From: Escherichia phage Eps7 | DNA: 64,000 nt | Strand: one strand, 5' to 3' | Sequence record: NC_010583.1 | Shown here: piece after piece, positions 19,648 through 56,056 of the stretch | Layout of the letters: the number at the start of each line of letters is the position of its first letter | Position numbering within the stretch: position 1 is the first letter of the stretch | The notes under the pieces: generated by a model | Seen by the model: the letters and a program-made list of their open reading frames with translations, nothing else | Database searches by the model: none | What the model was told of the DNA's origin: nothing | Made by a program: the position numbers and the translations under genes

Positions 19648-20058
19648 ATGACTACTCCAACTCAGTGGACTGATGAACTGTTCGAAAAAATGTCTTCCGA
19701 CTACGTTGCTCGTATGGAGCAATTCCCAGAAGATGAGCGTCCGGGCGTTAGCATGGAAATTGTTAGCGAAATTGCTCAGGAAAATGGTGTAACTCCGAAC
19801 GGTTTCCGTATGAAGCTGACCAAAGCAGGTCTGTATATCAAGAAAGCTGCTGGCTCTACTTCTAAATCAAGCGCATCTACTGGAGAAAAAGCTTCTGGTG
19901 GTTCTCGTACTTCCAAAGCTCAGGCGCACTCCGATCTTCGCTCTGCATTCTCTGATGCTGGCTTAGCACCGGACTTCCTGGACGACGCAATCATCGACAA
20001 GCTGACCGGTAAAGCAGCTGCTCATCTGGCAGAAGCTATCCGAGCTATCACTAAGTAA
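19648..20058 (+). CDS. hypothetical protein (136 aa), probably highly expressed
   Basis: strongly E. coli-optimal codon usage. Confidence 0.55.
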   Translation: MTTPTQWTDELFEKMSSDYVARMEQFPEDERPGVSMEIVSEIAQENGVTPNGFRMKLTKAGLYIKKAAGSTSKSSASTGEKASGGSRTSKAQAHSDLRSAFSDAGLAPDFLDDAIIDKLTGKAAAHLAEAIRAITK

Positions 20059-20837: not shown

Positions 20838-21809
20838 ATGACTAATGTAAAAGAATTTATTAAACGCTGTCAAGAAGCATATTATCAAGGTATGTCTTTA
20901 ATCTCTGACGAAGAATATGATCGTCTGATTAAAAGATTCCCACTAGAGGAAGAAATCGGACCGAAAGGTGATATTCCTCATTTGTATCGTATGTATTCTT
21001 TGCAGAAAGTCTATTACGGTCGCGGTGATAAAGCTCCATTCAATCCATTAGGTCAGGTTGAAACTGATAAGTTAGATGGTTGTGCGATTTCTCTATTATA
21101 TATTAATGGTGAATTTGTTCAAGCGTTAACTCGTGGTAACGGTATTCTAGGGAATGATGTAACGCATAATGTTAAAATGCTGAACATCCCCAAAACTATT
21201 TCCCAAAAAGTACCAACTCAAATCACTGGTGAAGTTCTCATTACTAAAGAAGTAGAGAACAAACGTAACTACGCTTCGGGTGCTATTAACCTGAAAGACA
21301 GCGATGATTTCATCCAACGTATTGGTGAAGGTGGTTTAATCTTCGTTGCATACGGTATCCAGTGTTCAGCGGAAACAGTCGGTATTACAGAAGCCTATTT
21401 AAAAGATATGCTTTGGCTAGAGAATGAGAACTTCTTGACAGTTGTTAATGTTCGTTCCTTTTTTAAATGGATTCCGACGGACGGTAAAGTTGTTCGTATT
21501 AACGACAACAATAAATTCTTCCGTGAAGGTTGGACTAATAAATTTCCTCGTGGTGCATTTGCTATTAAAGAGGATGAAGAAGGCGAAATTACCACACTTG
21601 TTAAAGTTGAATGGCAAGTAGGGGCTTCTGGTAAAGTAACTCCAGTTGGTTATTTCGAACCGGTGATTATTGATGATGCCACAATCGTTAAAGCAACTCT
21701 TAATAACGTTGATTATATTAACGCTCTCGATTTAGAGATCGGTTGCCAGATTCGAGTGATTCGTGCTGGTGGTGTAATCCCTTGTATAGTAGAGCGAGTA
21801 TACGACTAA
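20838..21809 (+). CDS. ligA: NAD-dependent DNA ligase, subunit A (adenylation domain)
   Basis: EYDRL N-terminal motif, KLDG adenylation lysine, TRGNG motif; 323 aa. Confidence 0.9.
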   Translation: MTNVKEFIKRCQEAYYQGMSLISDEEYDRLIKRFPLEEEIGPKGDIPHLYRMYSLQKVYYGRGDKAPFNPLGQVETDKLDGCAISLLYINGEFVQALTRGNGILGNDVTHNVKMLNIPKTISQKVPTQITGEVLITKEVENKRNYASGAINLKDSDDFIQRIGEGGLIFVAYGIQCSAETVGITEAYLKDMLWLENENFLTVVNVRSFFKWIPTDGKVVRINDNNKFFREGWTNKFPRGAFAIKEDEEGEITTLVKVEWQVGASGKVTPVGYFEPVIIDDATIVKATLNNVDYINALDLEIGCQIRVIRAGGVIPCIVERVYD

Positions 21810-21862
21810 TTCGTAACCCTTTGCTACCCGTTTACCATGTCGGAATTATAAAGTGGTTATTG

Positions 21863-21891
21863 ACATTTTCGCCGCTTAGGTATATACTATT
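21863..21891 (+). promoter_or_regulatory. sigma70 promoter TTGACA-17-TATACT
   Basis: in the spacer between the two ligase halves. Confidence 0.5.
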
Positions 21892-21953
21892 ATCATTCAG
21901 TTGAGGGATAGAAAGTTATGGCGAGGGTAAGCAAAGTTAGTTAAAATTGTAGT

Positions 21954-21981
21954 TGCTAAATGCTTAAATACTTGCTATAAT
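21954..21981 (+). promoter_or_regulatory. T5-type promoter with downstream ATTTATATAAATTGATAAGGAAG box
   Basis: TTGCTA-16-TATAAT. Confidence 0.6.
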
Positions 21982-22008
21982 ATTTATATAAATTGATAAG
22001 GAAGAAAT

Positions 22009-22790
22009 TTGATGAAAATCGAAATTCCAACACAATGTCCCTCTTGTGGTTCTAAGCTAGATCTTGTCAACGGGCAATTATTCTGTAGGAATAAGTCCAA
22101 CTGTCCAGCGCAATCAAGTAAGTTAATCGAGAACTTCTGCACAAAAATGAAGTTAAAGGGCTTTGGCCCGAAAACTATTGAGAAGCTGGAGCTGACTAAG
22201 ATCTCAGAACTGTTTTACCTGACCGAAGAAGATTTGGTCGGAGCTGTGGGTAGCAAGGTTGCCGCTAAATTGATTAGCGAGTTAAATACAAGGTTCGCGG
22301 AGACATTGACTTTGGTTCAGTTCTCGGTTCTTTAGGAATTCCTCTTATTGGAGAGGTTGCAGCAAAGAAACTGTCCCAAAATTGCACTAGCTTCCACGAT
22401 GTGAAGGCTGACGGCAAGGCTGGAGAAAATTACAAAACCTGGCTAAATTCCCCACAAGGCAAGGATGTTATTGAATTACCGTGGAAATTCTCAACTGGTA
22501 TCCGAGGTGCTAAAGCTGACATCATCATTACAGATGATTTAGTTGCCCAGCCAAATGGAATCACGGTCTGTATTACCGGATCTTTGCAAGATTTTGCAAA
22601 TCGAACGGATGCAACAAACTATTTAGAAAGTCTAGGGTATACGGTTAAGAAGTCCGTTACCAAAGACGTCAAATACCTAATCTGTGAGGATGAATCAAAA
22701 CGTTCTTCCTCATCTTATAAGAAAGCCGAAACGAATGGGATAGAAATCCTGTCGATTAAAGAACTATTGGAGAAAAATAATAATGTCTAA
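22009..22790 (+). CDS. ligB: NAD-dependent DNA ligase, subunit B (Zn finger, HhH, BRCT), frameshifted
   Basis: [15 protein letters not shown] Zn finger, [10 protein letters not shown] Hh[19 protein letters not shown]; frame break about 22303-22312. Confidence 0.85.
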
Positions 22791-23550
22791 ACTGAACTGG
22801 AACGTAGAAGGTGTAACCGAGTCTCTGAAAGCAAAAGCCACTGCTCTGGGTGTTGCTGTAATCTCTCAAGAACAAGTAGCTGCTATCGCTGCTGAACTGG
22901 CTACCGAGACTGGTAAAGACGTTACCGCTCGCTCTGTTGGCTCTAAGCTGCGTAAAGAAGGTTTCGAAGTACAGAAAGCTAACGAAGTACAGAAATCCCC
23001 GTGGACTCCTGAGCAGGAAGCTGAACTGGTTGATTTCCTGAACGCTCATGCGGGTCAGTATACTTACGCTGAAATCGCTGCTGCTGTAGCTGGTGGTCAG
23101 TTCGGTGCTAAGCAGGTTCAGGGTAAGATCCTGAGTCTGGAAATGACTGCTTCTGTTAAGCCAACCGAAAAAGCTGCTGCTGTTCGTTCCTTCACTCCTG
23201 ACGAAGAAACTGATTTCGTTAATCAGGTTGTTGCTGGTGCTACTATTGAAGCTATCGCTGCTCACTTCGGTCGCAATATTAAGCAGATCCGTGGTAAAGC
23301 TCTGAGTCTGCTTCGTGAAGGTCGTATCGCTGCTATGCCGGTACAGGAAACTTCAAGTGCTAAAACTCGTGAAGATCTGTTAGAAGGTCTGGATCTGGCT
23401 AACATGACTGTTGCTGAGATCGCTGAGAAAACTGGTAAGTCTGAGCGCGGTGTTAAATCTATGCTGTCTCGTCGTGGTCTGGTTGCTAAGGACTATGATG
23501 GTGCCGCTAAGCGTGCTAAACTGGATGCAAAAGCTGCGGCTGCTGAATAA
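22783..23550 (+). CDS. Ala-rich protein with four internal HTH-like repeats, putative DNA-binding protein
   Basis: repeated ..EIAA..G...V.(S/G)K..SL.. modules; optimal codon usage; 255 aa. Confidence 0.55.
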   Translation: MSKLNWNVEGVTESLKAKATALGVAVISQEQVAAIAAELATETGKDVTARSVGSKLRKEGFEVQKANEVQKSPWTPEQEAELVDFLNAHAGQYTYAEIAAAVAGGQFGAKQVQGKILSLEMTASVKPTEKAAAVRSFTPDEETDFVNQVVAGATIEAIAAHFGRNIKQIRGKALSLLREGRIAAMPVQETSSAKTREDLLEGLDLANMTVAEIAEKTGKSERGVKSMLSRRGLVAKDYDGAAKRAKLDAKAAAAE

Positions 23551-23567: not shown

Positions 23568-23599
23568 AAGGGGAGGGGGCTATGCTCCTTCCCCTTTTT
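23568..23599 (+). terminator. rho-independent terminator
   Basis: AAGGGGAGG...CCTTCCCCTT followed by TTTTG. Confidence 0.7.
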
Positions 23600-23620
23600 G
23601 CATTTAGAAGGCACGAAAGC

Positions 23621-25105
23621 GTGCAAAGGAGAATGACCTTGTTTAACGTGCAAGCTGTAGTGTTGAAGATGCTTCTCGCTTCTGAACAGAAGCAAATAGC
23701 ATTGGAAACATTCTCAAAACTGCATAAAGATCATTTTAATGACGCTTTCTCCTCAATTTACCAAGCCGTCCAGAATTATTATAAGAAATATAACGCAATG
23801 CCGTCCATTGACGCACTGATGCTTGAGGCCAATAGGAACGCCCGCCTTTCTCAAGCTCTTGTCGTCTTAGCTAACACTCAAATTCCAGAAGTGAGCATGG
23901 AACAGGCGCTTGAAGTCCTAGAAGCCGAATATACACAGGATCTATTCCTGAAACTTCTAGAAACAGACGTGCTTCAAGATTTAACAATGCTGGATCAGGG
24001 AGAAATTCTCAACCGAGTTGCCTCCCTTCACTTAAAATTAGAAGAGAAAGTAACGAATACTGGAAAGGTATTCAACGCAGACACAATGCGTATTTTCCAG
24101 AGAGAAGAAGATACCAAACTGAACTTGATCGCTCTTGGTATTTGTAATGAGTTCGACGCTCAAATTGGTTTAGCTCGCACAGAAACGTTACTGCTTGGTG
24201 GTTGGCGTGGTACTGGTAAATCCATTATCTGTTCAAACATACAGGTTCAGCAATATTTGAATGGAGACATTGCTCCATATTTCTCAATTGAGATGAAGGA
24301 GCACGAAGTGTTTAGACGTAATCTGGCTATGTTAGCTGGAGTATCTGCATTAGCAATGCGTAATAACACTCTTGAAGGTGCTGCTCTGTTGAGATTAGCC
24401 AGAACTAGGGCTAGAATGTTTAATGGTGGTGAAGAGCTTTTCGATAACTTCGTTAAGCAATACACTATGGCTAAAATGAGTGACTTCTATGATATGGAAA
24501 GTAAACTCCTTGAAGGCTATGAGCTTCACACTCCTATGATCATCGTTTACGATCCTGAACTGTCTATTACGACGGTTGACGTAGAATTAAATAAACTAGT
24601 TGCTAAATATGGTGATAAGGTTACTGTAGCTCTTCTAGACTATATTAACCAAACAAGACTTCCAGATTCAAAGACCATTGACATGTATGACTGGAAAGAA
24701 CAGATGGTTGTTAGTTCATCTTTCAAATCTATCTGCCAGAAACATAACGTGGCTGGTGTTGCCCCTTACCAGATTGACCAAGATGGTAGAACGCGTATGT
24801 CTAAAGGGATTCTTGATTCCGCAGATATGGCTGCTAATCTTAACGCTGCAAAAGCTGATAATGGTCAAGGTGCTATTATGTTTGATTTCGTTAAGACTCG
24901 TTCCTCTGATAGTGTGAAGTTTATGCCTAAGATGAACTGGGAAACTCTACGAATGGATAACACTACCAACCTAGCAATGGAAGATATTGCGCAAATGGAA
25001 GCTGAGTTCGTTATTCCTATTGAAAAGGATAAACCAGCTCAACCTAAACGTGCTAAGAAAGACAAAGCTGAAAATTCAACAGGTGAACAGGCCAGCGATA
25101 TATGA
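23621..25105 (+). CDS. replicative helicase (DnaB-like / RecA-fold ATPase)
   Basis: Walker A LGGWRGTGKS and RecA-like core; start taken as GTG 23621 (track ORF starts inside the terminator). Confidence 0.75.
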   Translation: MQRRMTLFNVQAVVLKMLLASEQKQIALETFSKLHKDHFNDAFSSIYQAVQNYYKKYNAMPSIDALMLEANRNARLSQALVVLANTQIPEVSMEQALEVLEAEYTQDLFLKLLETDVLQDLTMLDQGEILNRVASLHLKLEEKVTNTGKVFNADTMRIFQREEDTKLNLIALGICNEFDAQIGLARTETLLLGGWRGTGKSIICSNIQVQQYLNGDIAPYFSIEMKEHEVFRRNLAMLAGVSALAMRNNTLEGAALLRLARTRARMFNGGEELFDNFVKQYTMAKMSDFYDMESKLLEGYELHTPMIIVYDPELSITTVDVELNKLVAKYGDKVTVALLDYINQTRLPDSKTIDMYDWKEQMVVSSSFKSICQKHNVAGVAPYQIDQDGRTRMSKGILDSADMAANLNAAKADNGQGAIMFDFVKTRSSDSVKFMPKMNWETLRMDNTTNLAMEDIAQMEAEFVIPIEKDKPAQPKRAKKDKAENSTGEQASDI

Positions 25106-30602: not shown

Positions 30603-30965
30603 ATGAAATTCTTTGATTACGAGAGAATTTACCTCTTAGCTAGAGGAAACTCCGACCTGATTGTCAAGCTATTTAATAGAATGCTTGCAGAGCCTGATGC
30701 TCACCAGTTACTGGTCGGTTCTTCATTCATCTTGAATGAATCAACTATTGTTGATAACCCTTACAAATTGTCTAATAGACAACTGGCAGAATATCTAGGA
30801 ATTCTAAGTCTACGAAATTATGCCGAATATAAGTTTACAAACGATCCGAGTTTGGACATGCAATATGTTCCCATATGGATACCACGTTCTGTAATCGACA
30901 CTAACCCACTAATTGCAATCAATAAATCGAAGATAATCTTTAAAGAGGAAATAAAATATGGCTAA
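30603..30965 (+). CDS. hypothetical protein (120 aa)
   Basis: ORF downstream of tandem promoters. Confidence 0.5.
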   Translation: MKFFDYERIYLLARGNSDLIVKLFNRMLAEPDAHQLLVGSSFILNESTIVDNPYKLSNRQLAEYLGILSLRNYAEYKFTNDPSLDMQYVPIWIPRSVIDTNPLIAINKSKIIFKEEIKYG

Positions 30966-31731
30966 GTCTTGGGGCGAAACTACTGGCGGTTCTAACGATA
31001 AAATCGACTTCCTGAAATTCAACAACGGTGTAACTCGTGTTCGTATCGTTTCTGGTGTTCTTCCACGTTATGTCTACTGGCTGACTAACAAAGATGGTAA
31101 TGCAGCTCCGTTTGAGTGCCTGCGTTTCAACCGTACTAAAGAGAGCTTCGTTCGCGGTAAAGCTGACCCGATTCACGAAATGGGCTTCTTCGAGAAAGAG
31201 CTGGACAAAGATGGTAATCGTGTTCCGCTGAAACCGAAGAAAAACTACATCGCTTTCGTTATCGACCGTTCTGATAACAAACTGAAAGTTATGGAAGTTA
31301 AAGCTACTATCCTGAAAGGCATCCAGTCTATCATGAAGCAGCTTGAATTGGCAGATCCATTCGATATCGATATTTCTATCGAGAAGAAAGGTAAAGGCTT
31401 CGATACTGAGTACGATGTACAGCAGATCGCAGCAATGCAGTTCCAGATGAAACTGAAAGATCCTACCAGTGCTGAATCAAAACTGCACGCCGCAGATACT
31501 GATATTCTCGGTGAAGCACTGAGTGATGAAAATGGCGATTTCCTGAAGTTCGAAAAAGTTCCTTCTCTGGAAGAAACCTATCCGGTTCCGTCCTACGAAG
31601 AGCAGAAAGAAGCTATTCTCGCCTTCATGGAAGGTCGTGAGAAGCAAGACGGCGGTGACGCTAAGTCTGGTGGTGATGCTGGTTCTCAGAAAGGCATCGA
31701 CGCTGAAGCTGCTAGCGATCTGGACGACTAA
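30958..31731 (+). CDS. putative single-stranded DNA-binding protein (acidic C-terminal tail)
   Basis: optimal codon usage; acidic tail ending DLDD; function inferred only. Confidence 0.45.
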   Translation: MAKSWGETTGGSNDKIDFLKFNNGVTRVRIVSGVLPRYVYWLTNKDGNAAPFECLRFNRTKESFVRGKADPIHEMGFFEKELDKDGNRVPLKPKKNYIAFVIDRSDNKLKVMEVKATILKGIQSIMKQLELADPFDIDISIEKKGKGFDTEYDVQQIAAMQFQMKLKDPTSAESKLHAADTDILGEALSDENGDFLKFEKVPSLEETYPVPSYEEQKEAILAFMEGREKQDGGDAKSGGDAGSQKGIDAEAASDLDD

Positions 31732-54679: not shown

Positions 54680-56056
54680 TTAAGCGGCAGCGTAAGCACC
54701 AGATACAACGCCGTTCTCGAAGTAACGTTGCAGGTTAACACGCTGAGTAACGTAGTATGCGTCACGCTGTTTGCCAGCTTGGCGCTCACGTTCAACAGTA
54801 ACAGCACGCTGACGCGGCATTACGAAGTTATCTTTATAAACAATAACTGCGAATTCTGCAGAAGCAGCTTTAGCTGGGAAATACTCAGAAACTACAACCG
54901 GCAGACCGTAAATACGACCAACCTGACCTTGCAGTTTAACAGCATCGTTACCAACCTGGGCAACATCCTGCCATTCTTCATCTTCCAGCAGATCGTAGTA
55001 AGCATCCATAGATACGATCAGTACCAGTTTGCTCAGTTTCAGACCATGACGGCCCAGTTTACGACGCAGCTTGGAGATAGTCTTAGCAGTTACCAGAACA
55101 GAACCGTCAGCTTTAGCTTCGGTAACAACCTTAGCACCATCATCAGCAGCCAGTTTCAGCAGACCCTTAGGCTGACCAGTACCATTACCAGACATGAAAG
55201 CTTCTTCGATAGAAACAGCGTGTGCTTCGATCAGACGCTTACGCAGCAGAGGCAGCAGGGAGAAGATTGCATCTTCTTCAGTTTCATCAGTGATGAAGGA
55301 TTTAGCAGCCAGCTTGTAAGTTTTGAAGCTGATTTCAGTCAGTTGACCTTTAACTTCGTCACCAACAGTTTCGTCAGTACCGAATTTGGAAGCATCTACC
55401 CAAGTAGCGCGACCAGCTTCTGGTTCAACGAGCATAGTAAGGATTTTGCTGGACATTGGCAGTTCATCGAACAGTGCACCAACTACCAGTTCCTTCTGCA
55501 GGTCACGAATAATACGGGTAGAGAAGATAGTTTCGTATGCTTCGCTAGACATGGAAACGGAAGAAGAACCGTTAACAGCTTTAATGTGAGCCTTACCATG
55601 TTCAGTTTCGAATACGTCTTTCTCCATCATATAAGACAGAAGAACCAGTTTCTCAACTTCATCTTCGAAAGCATCCTGAGTGCCATAAAGAGCTTTAGCT
55701 ACGCTATCACCAACGAAGGAACGACCTTCACGAGCTGCCAACAGAGACTTGATTTCGTCCTGAAGACCAACGATGGTTTCCTGTTGCTTTTCTACAGTCT
55801 GTGCAAACAGTTCTGCGCTCTTCTTAGACTTCTCATCCAGGTTCTTAACCAGATCCAGAGCTTCTTCCAGACGCTTACGGTCTTCACCAACAGCTTTAGA
55901 TACTAGGTCGTTCATACGAGCCAGTTCTTTTTCTTCCTGCTCTTCACGCAGACGCTTAGCTTCCGCAGCTTTCTGAGCAGCGGTCAGACCTTCCAGAGAT
56001 TTAGCCAGATCACCCAGACCAAGTTCTTCCTTCAGCTTATTAATATCAATAGTCAT
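54680..56056 (-). CDS. major capsid protein precursor (pb8-like, HK97 fold, with N-terminal scaffold/delta domain)
   Basis: 458 aa; coiled-coil N-terminal ~160 aa then capsid core; optimal codon usage. Confidence 0.9.
   Translation of the reverse strand: MTIDINKLKEELGLGDLAKSLEGLTAAQKAAEAKRLREEQEEKELARMNDLVSKAVGEDRKRLEEALDLVKNLDEKSKKSAELFAQTVEKQQETIVGLQDEIKSLLAAREGRSFVGDSVAKALYGTQDAFEDEVEKLVLLSYMMEKDVFETEHGKAHIKAVNGSSSVSMSSEAYETIFSTRIIRDLQKELVVGALFDELPMSSKILTMLVEPEAGRATWVDASKFGTDETVGDEVKGQLTEISFKTYKLAAKSFITDETEEDAIFSLLPLLRKRLIEAHAVSIEEAFMSGNGTGQPKGLLKLAADDGAKVVTEAKADGSVLVTAKTISKLRRKLGRHGLKLSKLVLIVSMDAYYDLLEDEEWQDVAQVGNDAVKLQGQVGRIYGLPVVVSEYFPAKAASAEFAVIVYKDNFVMPRQRAVTVERERQAGKQRDAYYVTQRVNLQRYFENGVVSGAYAAA

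What the first reader, a model, noticed from the sequence alone, without database searches (positions are those of the whole stretch)
22783..23550. Ala-rich protein built from four HTH-like repeats with strongly optimal codon usage
Internal repeats of about 55 aa and highly biased codons suggest an abundant DNA-binding protein, possibly the T5 D5-type early protein. The repeat architecture is unusual.
Basis: inference. Interest (0 to 1): 0.4.

Follow-up and report, generated by a model that had tools for sequence, protein, structure and literature searches.

The report
Phage T5 D5 DNA-binding protein

Summary
ORF 22783-23550 (+) encodes a 255-aa protein with 17.6% Ala. Its codon usage is the most host-optimal of 58 ORFs in the window: Fop 0.831 against 0.598±0.029 expected, z 7.9, with GC3 at background level.

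A confident AlphaFold2 model (pLDDT 93) shows four consecutive HTH units, three of three helices and a shorter fourth, plus a C-terminal Ala/Lys helix. Units 2 and 3 are a clear internal duplication (shuffle z 8.2; hhalign 95.8%, E 7e-9). Units 1 and 4 are recognisable mainly from the predicted structure.

The window is an Epseptimavirus of the T5 group. The protein is 99% identical (252/255) to T5 D5 (T5.118), which RefSeq annotates as a DNA-binding protein required for DNA replication and late transcription. It lies in the conserved ligB–D5–helicase–primase–polymerase block, downstream of two promoter-like sites and upstream of a terminator-like hairpin.

The most likely mechanism is that a highly expressed four-HTH monomer coats duplex DNA. 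That mechanism is inferred here, not shown.

Relatives carry 4, 5 or about 10 units, and some are fused to an ECF sigma domain. The gene is already known, so interest is low.

The parts
21860..21888 (+). Sigma-70 promoter-like site (TTGACA-17-TATACT, 11/12) upstream of ligB. It lies at the position of the promoter T5 annotates as P-K 28b.
   Evidence: Consensus scan; T5 annotation of two promoters between ligA and ligB. This is a consensus match only, and function was not tested.
21953..21981 (+). Second promoter-like site (TTGCTA-17-TATAAT with an upstream TG, 10/12). It lies at the position of T5 P-K 28a.
22012..22790 (+). NAD-dependent DNA ligase subunit B gene, probably co-transcribed with D5. 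Its stop overlaps the D5 start by 8 nt (ATGTCTAA).
   Evidence: ORF list and sequence; annotation in BSP22A and T5. A marine relative shows the same kind of overlap, L003 6001-6014.
22783..23550 (+). D5 coding sequence: 255 aa, 27.0 kDa, pI 6.8.
22792..22971 (+). HTH unit 1 (aa 4-63). Helices 11-22, 29-43 and 49-58. Helix 3, ARSVGSKLRK, has net charge +4; R50, K55, L56 and R57 are invariant.
   Evidence: AF2 model; alignment A1; charge and conservation. The U1 profile hits engineered variants of the engrailed homeodomain in PDB at E 1.5e-4.
22996..23154 (+). HTH unit 2 (aa 72-124), Myb-like, starting SPWTPEQE. Helices 76-88, 95-101 and 109-118. Q113, G114, K115 and L117 are invariant.
   Evidence: The Pfam Myb_DNA-binding hit is weak, 17.8 bits against a cut-off of 24.4.
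23185..23334 (+). HTH unit 3 (aa 135-184), the paralogue of unit 2, starting RSFTPDEE. Helices 139-150, 155-162 and 166-178. G171 and K172 are invariant.
   Evidence: U2-U3: shuffle z 8.2; hhalign 95.8%, E 6.7e-9; DNA echoes.
23353..23496 (+). HTH unit 4 (aa 191-238), sigma-70 region 4.2-like. Helices 210-217 and 221-231. G223, L228, R230 and R231 are invariant.
   Evidence: Pfam Sigma70_r4_2 29.1 bits, above the 25.7 cut-off, at aa 204-230.
23500..23544 (+). C-terminal Ala/Lys-rich helix (aa 240-254, GAAKRAKLDAKAAAA), net charge +3. A role in self-association or extra DNA contact is speculative.
   Evidence: AF2 secondary structure; composition.
23568..23606 (+). Intrinsic-terminator-like hairpin (13-bp stem, 8 G-C pairs) followed by TTTTTGCATTT, 18 nt after the D5 stop.
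   Evidence: Scan; RNA fold -25.5 kcal/mol, z -3.1. It is identical in T5, and a different hairpin sits at the same place in a 50%-identical marine relative. T5 RefSeq does not annotate it as a terminator.

Best explanation
The ORF is the orthologue of bacteriophage T5 early gene D5.

Anatomy. It encodes a 27-kDa protein made of four tandem helix-turn-helix units joined by conserved linkers, ending in a basic Ala/Lys helix.

Expression (inferred). The gene is probably transcribed with ligB from two strong early promoters. It is written in host-optimal codons, and a terminator-like hairpin separates it from the replication genes downstream. Together these should let it accumulate far above its neighbours.

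Proposed mechanism (inferred). Each unit places its conserved, basic third helix against duplex DNA. One monomer would therefore hold several neighbouring sites with little sequence preference. At high concentration the protein would coat phage DNA. Coating would alter access for host RNA polymerase, producing early shut-off and late turn-on, and for the T5 replisome.

What is shown here: identity with D5, the four-unit architecture, codon bias, synteny, and the presence of consensus transcription signals.

What is taken from annotation and literature: DNA binding, the requirement for replication and late transcription, and HTH-mediated binding of a retron msDNA.

What is inferred: that all four units contact DNA, and that coating is how D5 acts.
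For: Identity:
- 252/255 aa identical to T5 D5.
- PHROG 323 at E 1.5e-71.
- 512 phage records carry the gene over at least 80% of its length.

Function from annotation and literature:
- T5 RefSeq note.
- bioRxiv 10.64898/2026.07.11.737809 reports T5 D5 as a 26-kDa species by mass photometry. Its HTH is predicted to bind retron-Kva2 msDNA, and D5 triggers that retron.

Architecture:
- AF2 pLDDT 93.2, four HTH units.
- Helix 3 of every unit is basic (+2 to +4) and more conserved (0.72-0.86) than the protein average of 0.61, while helix 1 of units 2 and 3 and helix 2 of unit 1 are acidic.
- 15 of the 23 invariant residues lie in or next to the four third helices.

High expression:
- Fop rank 1 of 58, z 7.9.
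- Lowest synonymous divergence from T5 among 19 neighbouring genes, 0.078 against 0.13-0.37.
- Promoter-like and terminator-like signals.
- D5 is prominent in phiR2-01 mass spectrometry.

Replication-module context: the block PC4-like–ligA–ligB–D5–DnaB–primase–PolA is kept even at 50% identity.
Against:
- The protein is nearly neutral (pI 6.8, 34 K+R against 34 D+E), unlike classical histone-like coaters.
- pTM is only 0.53, so the mutual arrangement of the units is uncertain.
- Units 1 and 4 are only weakly related to units 2 and 3 by sequence.
- My statements that binding is cooperative and sequence-independent rest on my recollection of 1979-83 biochemistry. Those papers are not held in the library.
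- The retron preprint reports a T5 escaper carrying W74* in D5. That fits poorly with an essential coating protein.
Confidence: 0.65

Rival explanations
1. D5 is a sequence-specific transcription factor or sigma-like co-factor. Unit 4, which resembles sigma-70 region 4.2, and the other HTH units would read defined elements at late or early promoters, or dock on RNA polymerase, and so switch the transcription class directly.
For: - Pfam Sigma70_r4_2 scores above its gathering cut-off at aa 204-230.
- 24 of 92 unit sequences hit that family.
- T5 annotation says D5 is required for late transcription, and PHROG and several GenBank records call it a transcription regulator or factor.
- Distant relatives P0254 and P0243 fuse the same kind of units to an ECF sigma domain; for P0254, TIGR02937 scores 55 bits against a 42.9 cut-off.
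Against: - There is no sigma region 2 or region 3 above threshold.
- The extreme codon optimisation, equal to the probable capsid gene, points to stoichiometric rather than catalytic amounts.
- Four units with similar basic helices fit multivalent, low-specificity binding better.
- T5 early and late promoters are all sigma-70 type and differ mainly in the discriminator (PMC7472727).
Confidence: 0.2
2. D5 is primarily a replication accessory protein. It would load or organise the T5 helicase-primase-polymerase on duplex or nicked DNA, and its effects on transcription would be secondary to failed replication.
For: - It holds a fixed position inside the replication module, between ligase B and the DnaB-type helicase, from T5 to marine relatives.
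- T5 annotation says it is required for DNA replication.
Against: - No domain beyond the HTH units suggests contact with a replisome protein.
- Its abundance is far above what a loader would need.
- Synteny alone does not separate this reading from the main explanation.
Confidence: 0.1
3. The codon bias and higher G+C mark a recently acquired foreign gene, or D5 is a packaged virion protein, rather than a highly expressed early DNA-coating protein.
For: - Local G+C is 0.47-0.50 against about 0.38-0.42 in the flanks.
- D5 is listed among the major virion-associated proteins of phiR2-01.
Against: - GC3 is 0.34, equal to the background of 0.32. The extra G+C sits at codon positions 1 and 2 because of Ala and Gly.
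- The gene and its synteny are conserved across the whole family, down to 50% identity.
- The phiR2-01 authors note that D5 is the only one of those proteins not found in T5 virions, which points to carry-over of an abundant DNA-bound protein.
Confidence: 0.05

Closest known systems
Bacteriophage T5 D5 protein (T5.118, YP_006946; PHROG 323)
   Same: 99% amino-acid identity over all 255 residues, the same gene order (ligB–D5–helicase), the same overlap with ligB, and an identical downstream hairpin.
   Different: Three substitutions only: A25D, T41A and A206V, written window to T5. Host range and genus differ, Epseptimavirus of Salmonella against Tequintavirus.
Myb/SANT-type and homeodomain-like tandem repeat DNA-binding domains (c-Myb R1-R3, SNAPc4, Timeless DBD, Tc3 bipartite domain)
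   Different: Pfam Myb_DNA-binding is below its cut-off, 17.8 against 24.4 bits. The regularly spaced tryptophan triad is absent. This is a phage protein with four dissimilar units.
Caulobacter GcrA DNA-binding domain (PDB 5yiu)
   Different: Sequence support is marginal: E 0.025 for the all-unit profile, E 0.96 for the unit-1 profile, and Pfam GcrA matched by 2 of 92 units. No GcrA match appears in the full-length Pfam scan, so nothing suggests the rest of GcrA is present.
Sigma-70 region 4.2 (PF08281) and LuxR/GerE-type HTH
   Same: Unit 4 scores above the Pfam gathering cut-off. TraR, DevR and sigma chains appear among the weak structural matches.
   Different: Only the two-helix HTH core is shared. 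No other sigma regions are present.
Cbp1, the archaeal CRISPR repeat-binding protein built of tandem HTH units (PDB 2lvs; NF040595)
   Same: A small protein made only of consecutive HTH units. 2lvs appears in both structure searches. Relatives P0193 and P0254 give weak NF040595 hits.
   Different: All scores are far below cut-off. The D5 protein itself has no NCBIfam hit. That Cbp1 has three units and binds specific DNA repeats is my own knowledge.

Membership tests
T5 D5 protein family (PHROG 323) | Full-length sequence homology to T5 D5 | tested here: met
   252/255 identical; PHROG 323 E 1.5e-71 covering aa 1-253.
T5 D5 protein family (PHROG 323) | Position in the early replication block, between DNA ligase subunit B and the DnaB-type helicase | tested here: met
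   BSP22A and T5 annotations. The same order holds in marine contigs L003 and L004 at 50% identity.
T5 D5 protein family (PHROG 323) | Binds double-stranded DNA | not testable with these tools
   Known for T5 D5 from annotation and the 1979 paper title. Here there is only indirect support from the basic, conserved third helices.
T5 D5 protein family (PHROG 323) | Needed for phage DNA replication, late transcription and early shut-off | not testable with these tools
   T5 RefSeq note.
Sigma-70 family factors | Region 4.2 HTH | tested here: met
   PF08281 29.1 bits against a 25.7 cut-off at aa 204-230.
Sigma-70 family factors | Region 2 (core binding and -10 recognition) | tested here: not met
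   No Sigma70_r2 hit at E up to 10. Sigma70_r3 scores 20.9, below its 25.3 cut-off. D5 is therefore not a sigma factor.
Myb/SANT repeat proteins | Pfam Myb_DNA-binding above the gathering score | tested here: not met
   17.8 bits against a 24.4 cut-off. In the unit census, 11 units hit Myb_DNA-binding and 15 hit Myb_DNA-bind_6, with best E 8.7e-4.
Myb/SANT repeat proteins | Three-helix fold superposable on Myb repeats | tested here: inconclusive
GcrA family | N-terminal GcrA-type DNA-binding domain | tested here: inconclusive
GcrA family | Match to the full-length GcrA family model (PF07750), including the C-terminal part | tested here: not met
   PF07750 does not appear in the full-length Pfam scan at E up to 10. 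That the C-terminal part of GcrA binds sigma-70 is my own knowledge.

The most novel reading that the evidence does not exclude
D5 is a phage-encoded 'chromatin' protein. In this reading it is a modular string of HTH units whose number evolves by unit duplication: four in T5, five in P0122 and in the P0182/P0193 subfamily, and longer arrays or ECF-sigma fusions elsewhere. It would polymerise along replicating phage DNA and set the early-to-late switch by occupancy rather than by promoter recognition. The same multivalent HTH surface would be the molecular pattern that retron msDNA decoys have evolved to sense.
Probability: 0.3. Interest if true: 0.45.

Novelty: already known. Interest (0 to 1): 0.2.

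Why it matters
D5 is one of the few T5 early proteins tied to the still-unexplained switch from early to late transcription by an unmodified sigma-70 RNA polymerase (PMC7472727). In 2026 it was reported as the trigger of a type IX retron.

The explicit decomposition into four units, each with a conserved basic third helix, gives mutagenesis targets for both questions. The finding that unit number varies among relatives adds to that.

None of this changes what the gene is. For a genome scan it is a correctly recognised, already named gene.

Tried and rejected
- BLASTP of the protein against itself returned only the identity alignment. Segment-wise Smith-Waterman with shuffles and profile-profile comparison were needed instead.
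- PDB sequence search with the whole protein found nothing below E 0.5.
- Foldseek of the whole model against PDB found nothing below E 0.05 and TM-scores of at most 0.21. No solved multi-unit homologue exists.
- Effective number of codons in a marine relative, to see whether the codon bias generalises. D5 is not distinctive there (Nc 41.5 against 35-47) because the whole AT-rich contig is biased. Ala enrichment does persist, 12.5% against 2.5-10.6%.
- Tandem Repeats Finder on the gene found nothing.
- The classical D5 papers (PMC353123, PMC4743489) are not held. One literature search was swamped by 'tumor protein D52', and several calls failed on the 3-character term limit.
- The NCBIfam scan found no family for D5.
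- The tRNA scan of the window found none.
- The 169-aa antisense ORF 22756-23265 was rejected as a gene. It lies wholly inside ligB/D5. The sense-strand codons that read as stops on the opposite strand (TTA, CTA, TCA) occur only twice in D5, so a long antisense ORF is an expected by-product.

Full report
**What is there.**
- The ORF runs from ATG 22783 to TAA 23550 on the + strand and encodes 255 aa.
- Its start overlaps the stop of the upstream ORF by 8 nt (ATGTCTAA).
- The product is 27.0 kDa with pI 6.8 and 17.6% alanine.
- The DNA is 100% identical to the 'D5 protein' gene of Salmonella phage BSP22A (Epseptimavirus, Demerecviridae).
- 512 phage records carry the gene over at least 80% of its length.
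- The protein is 252/255 identical to T5 D5 (T5.118). RefSeq annotates that gene as 'DNA-binding protein; required for DNA replication and late transcription; also is involved in shutoff of expression...'.
- PHROG 323 ('transcriptional regulator, D5-like') matches at E 1.5e-71.

**Codon usage.**
- Among 58 non-overlapping ORFs of at least 100 aa in the window, this gene has the highest fraction of E. coli-type optimal codons (0.831) and the lowest effective number of codons (32.2).
- The next three are the 457-codon ORF at 54680-56056, which I take by size and position to be the major capsid gene, then D3 and D11.
- The optimal-codon list comes from my own knowledge.
- Individual counts are extreme: GCT 39/45, CTG 17/19, GGT 18/19, CGT+CGC 12/12, GTT+GTA 21/21.
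- Re-drawing synonymous codons for the same protein from window-wide usage gives 0.598±0.029, so z = 7.9.
- The local G+C rise to 0.47-0.50 is not the cause. GC3 is 0.34 against a background of 0.32, and the excess lies at codon positions 1 and 2 because of Ala and Gly.
- Compared with T5, D5 has the fewest synonymous differences of 19 neighbouring genes, 0.078 per conserved codon against 0.13-0.37. This is as expected if synonymous sites are under selection.

**Repeat architecture.**
- An AlphaFold2 model built on 40 homologues is confident (mean pLDDT 93.2, pTM 0.53).
- It shows three three-helix bundles: helices 11-22/29-43/49-58, 76-88/95-101/109-118 and 139-150/155-162/166-178.
- A shorter fourth unit has a turn at 205-207 and helices 210-217 and 221-231.
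- A C-terminal helix spans 240-254.
- At sequence level, units 2 and 3 are clearly paralogous: Smith-Waterman z 8.2 with 0/500 shuffles, and hhalign 95.8%, E 6.7e-9 over 54 columns.
- The other pairs score 12-64%.
- There is no DNA-level tandem repeat. There are only short in-frame echoes between U2 and U3.
- In every unit the third helix is basic (+2 to +4) and more conserved (0.72-0.86) than the protein average of 0.61.
- Most invariant residues fall in or next to the third helices: R50, K55, L56, R57; Q113, G114, K115, L117; G171, K172; G223, L228, R230, R231.

**What kind of HTH.**
- No solved structure resembles the whole chain. Foldseek against PDB gives a best E of 0.06.
- Pfam places unit 4 in Sigma70_r4_2 above its cut-off. 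The other units get sub-threshold Myb, HTH_23 and HTH_28 hits.
- Profiles of the units hit engineered variants of the engrailed homeodomain (E 1.5e-4) and a small HTH protein, 2x48. They reach GcrA only at E 0.025 and 0.96.
- I therefore call the units generic homeodomain-like/Myb-like HTH domains and do not assign them to GcrA.

**Context and expression signals.**
- The gene sits in the early replication block D2–D3–ligA–ligB–D5–helicase–primase–polymerase.
- The same order, including the ligB/D5 overlap, holds in marine contigs whose D5 is only 50% identical.
- Two sigma-70 promoter-like sites lie upstream of ligB at 21860-21888 and 21953-21981. They correspond to T5's annotated promoters P-K 28b and P-K 28a.
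- Eighteen nucleotides after the D5 stop there is a 13-bp G+C-rich hairpin followed by a T-run (23568-23606; -25.5 kcal/mol, z -3.1).
- That hairpin is identical in T5. In the marine relative a different hairpin occupies the same place.
- These are consensus matches and were not tested for function.
- They fit a ligB–D5 transcription unit designed to make much more D5 than downstream replication enzymes.

**Family breadth and unit number.**
- An exhaustive profile search found 504 cluster representatives at E ≤ 1e-3, of which 77 are at E ≤ 1e-30.
- Most full-length members are 233-262 aa and match in one stretch, so the four-unit layout is stable.
- Variants exist:
  - P0122 (309 aa) is U1–U2–U2–U3–U4.
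  - A 274-294-aa subfamily (P0182, P0192, P0193 and others) has U1 followed by three or four U3-like units.
  - P0255 has about ten units.
  - P0254 and P0243 carry an N-terminal domain with a LuxR/GerE-type HTH followed by five or six units. For P0254 the N-terminal domain scores above cut-off as an ECF sigma factor (TIGR02937 55 bits against 42.9).
- BFVD contains other phage proteins that align over about 240 columns at E 1e-7 to 1e-4 with low TM-scores, meaning other strings of HTH units.
- The architecture is therefore modular and not unique to D5.

**Mechanism.**
- Literature and annotation establish that T5 D5 binds DNA and is needed for replication and late gene expression.
- A 2026 preprint reports it as a 26-kDa species whose HTH is predicted to bind retron-Kva2 msDNA, and which triggers that retron.
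- From my own recollection of 1979-83 biochemistry, which I could not check, binding is to duplex DNA, cooperative and not sequence-specific.
- Combined with the anatomy above, the best-supported model is a highly expressed multivalent HTH protein that coats phage DNA and so governs polymerase access (confidence 0.65).
- Rivals:
  - A sequence-specific or sigma-like transcription factor (0.2).
  - A replisome accessory protein (0.1).
  - A foreign-gene or virion-protein reading (0.05).
- Points against the coating model are the near-neutral net charge, the uncertain arrangement of the units, and a reported viable W74* escaper.

**Verdict.** The object is a known, named gene. The only additions here are descriptive: the unit boundaries, the U2/U3 duplication, the conserved basic third helices, variable unit number among relatives, and an unannotated terminator-like hairpin. 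Interest is low.

Noticed in passing
window 23582-23635: The first ATG of the helicase ORF (23582), which T5 RefSeq uses for D6, lies in the loop of the terminator-like hairpin after D5. The ATG at 23633 is preceded by AAGGAG (23626-23631) and is the start used in the BSP22A annotation. The T5 D6 start may therefore be annotated 17 codons too early.
   Followed up: partly
window 19648-20058 (D3), 30958-31731 (D11) and 54680-56056 (457-codon ORF, probably the major capsid gene): These three genes share the extreme host-optimal codon usage of D5 (Fop 0.79, 0.76 and 0.81; Nc 33-36). T5 annotates D3 as a DNA-binding protein and D11 as a single-strand DNA-binding protein. The most codon-optimised early genes in the window are thus all DNA-binding proteins.
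   Followed up: partly
window 22756-23265, minus strand: A 169-aa antisense ORF lies entirely inside ligB/D5. It is probably a by-product of codon bias: the sense codons TTA, CTA and TCA, which read as stops on the other strand, occur only twice in D5.
   Followed up: partly
T5 D5 (L002 7311-8078), literature: The retron-Kva2 preprint reports a plaque-forming T5 escaper with four D5 changes, including a premature stop at W74. G53, W74 and G232 are nearly invariant in my alignment. A viable nonsense mutant conflicts with D5 being required for replication and late transcription, and is unexplained.
   Followed up: no
P0254 and P0243 (metagenomic proteins, 506 and 569 aa): In these proteins an N-terminal domain with a LuxR/GerE-type HTH is followed by five or six D5-like (U2/U3-type) HTH units. 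For P0254 the N-terminal domain scores above cut-off as an ECF-type sigma-70 factor. I did not find this domain combination described, and their genomic context was not examined.
   Followed up: partly
L003 8144-8509 (marine T5-like contig): A 121-aa SET-domain (PF00856) gene sits between the DnaB-type helicase and the primase in the marine relative's replication block. The window has no counterpart at that position.
   Followed up: no
window 20838-22790 compared with L002: The T5 genes T5.112 and the HNH endonuclease genes hegI and hegJ have no counterpart at the matching positions in the window. For example, helicase and primase abut at 25102-25105. This is consistent with mobile homing-endonuclease insertions that differ between T5-like phages.
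   Followed up: no
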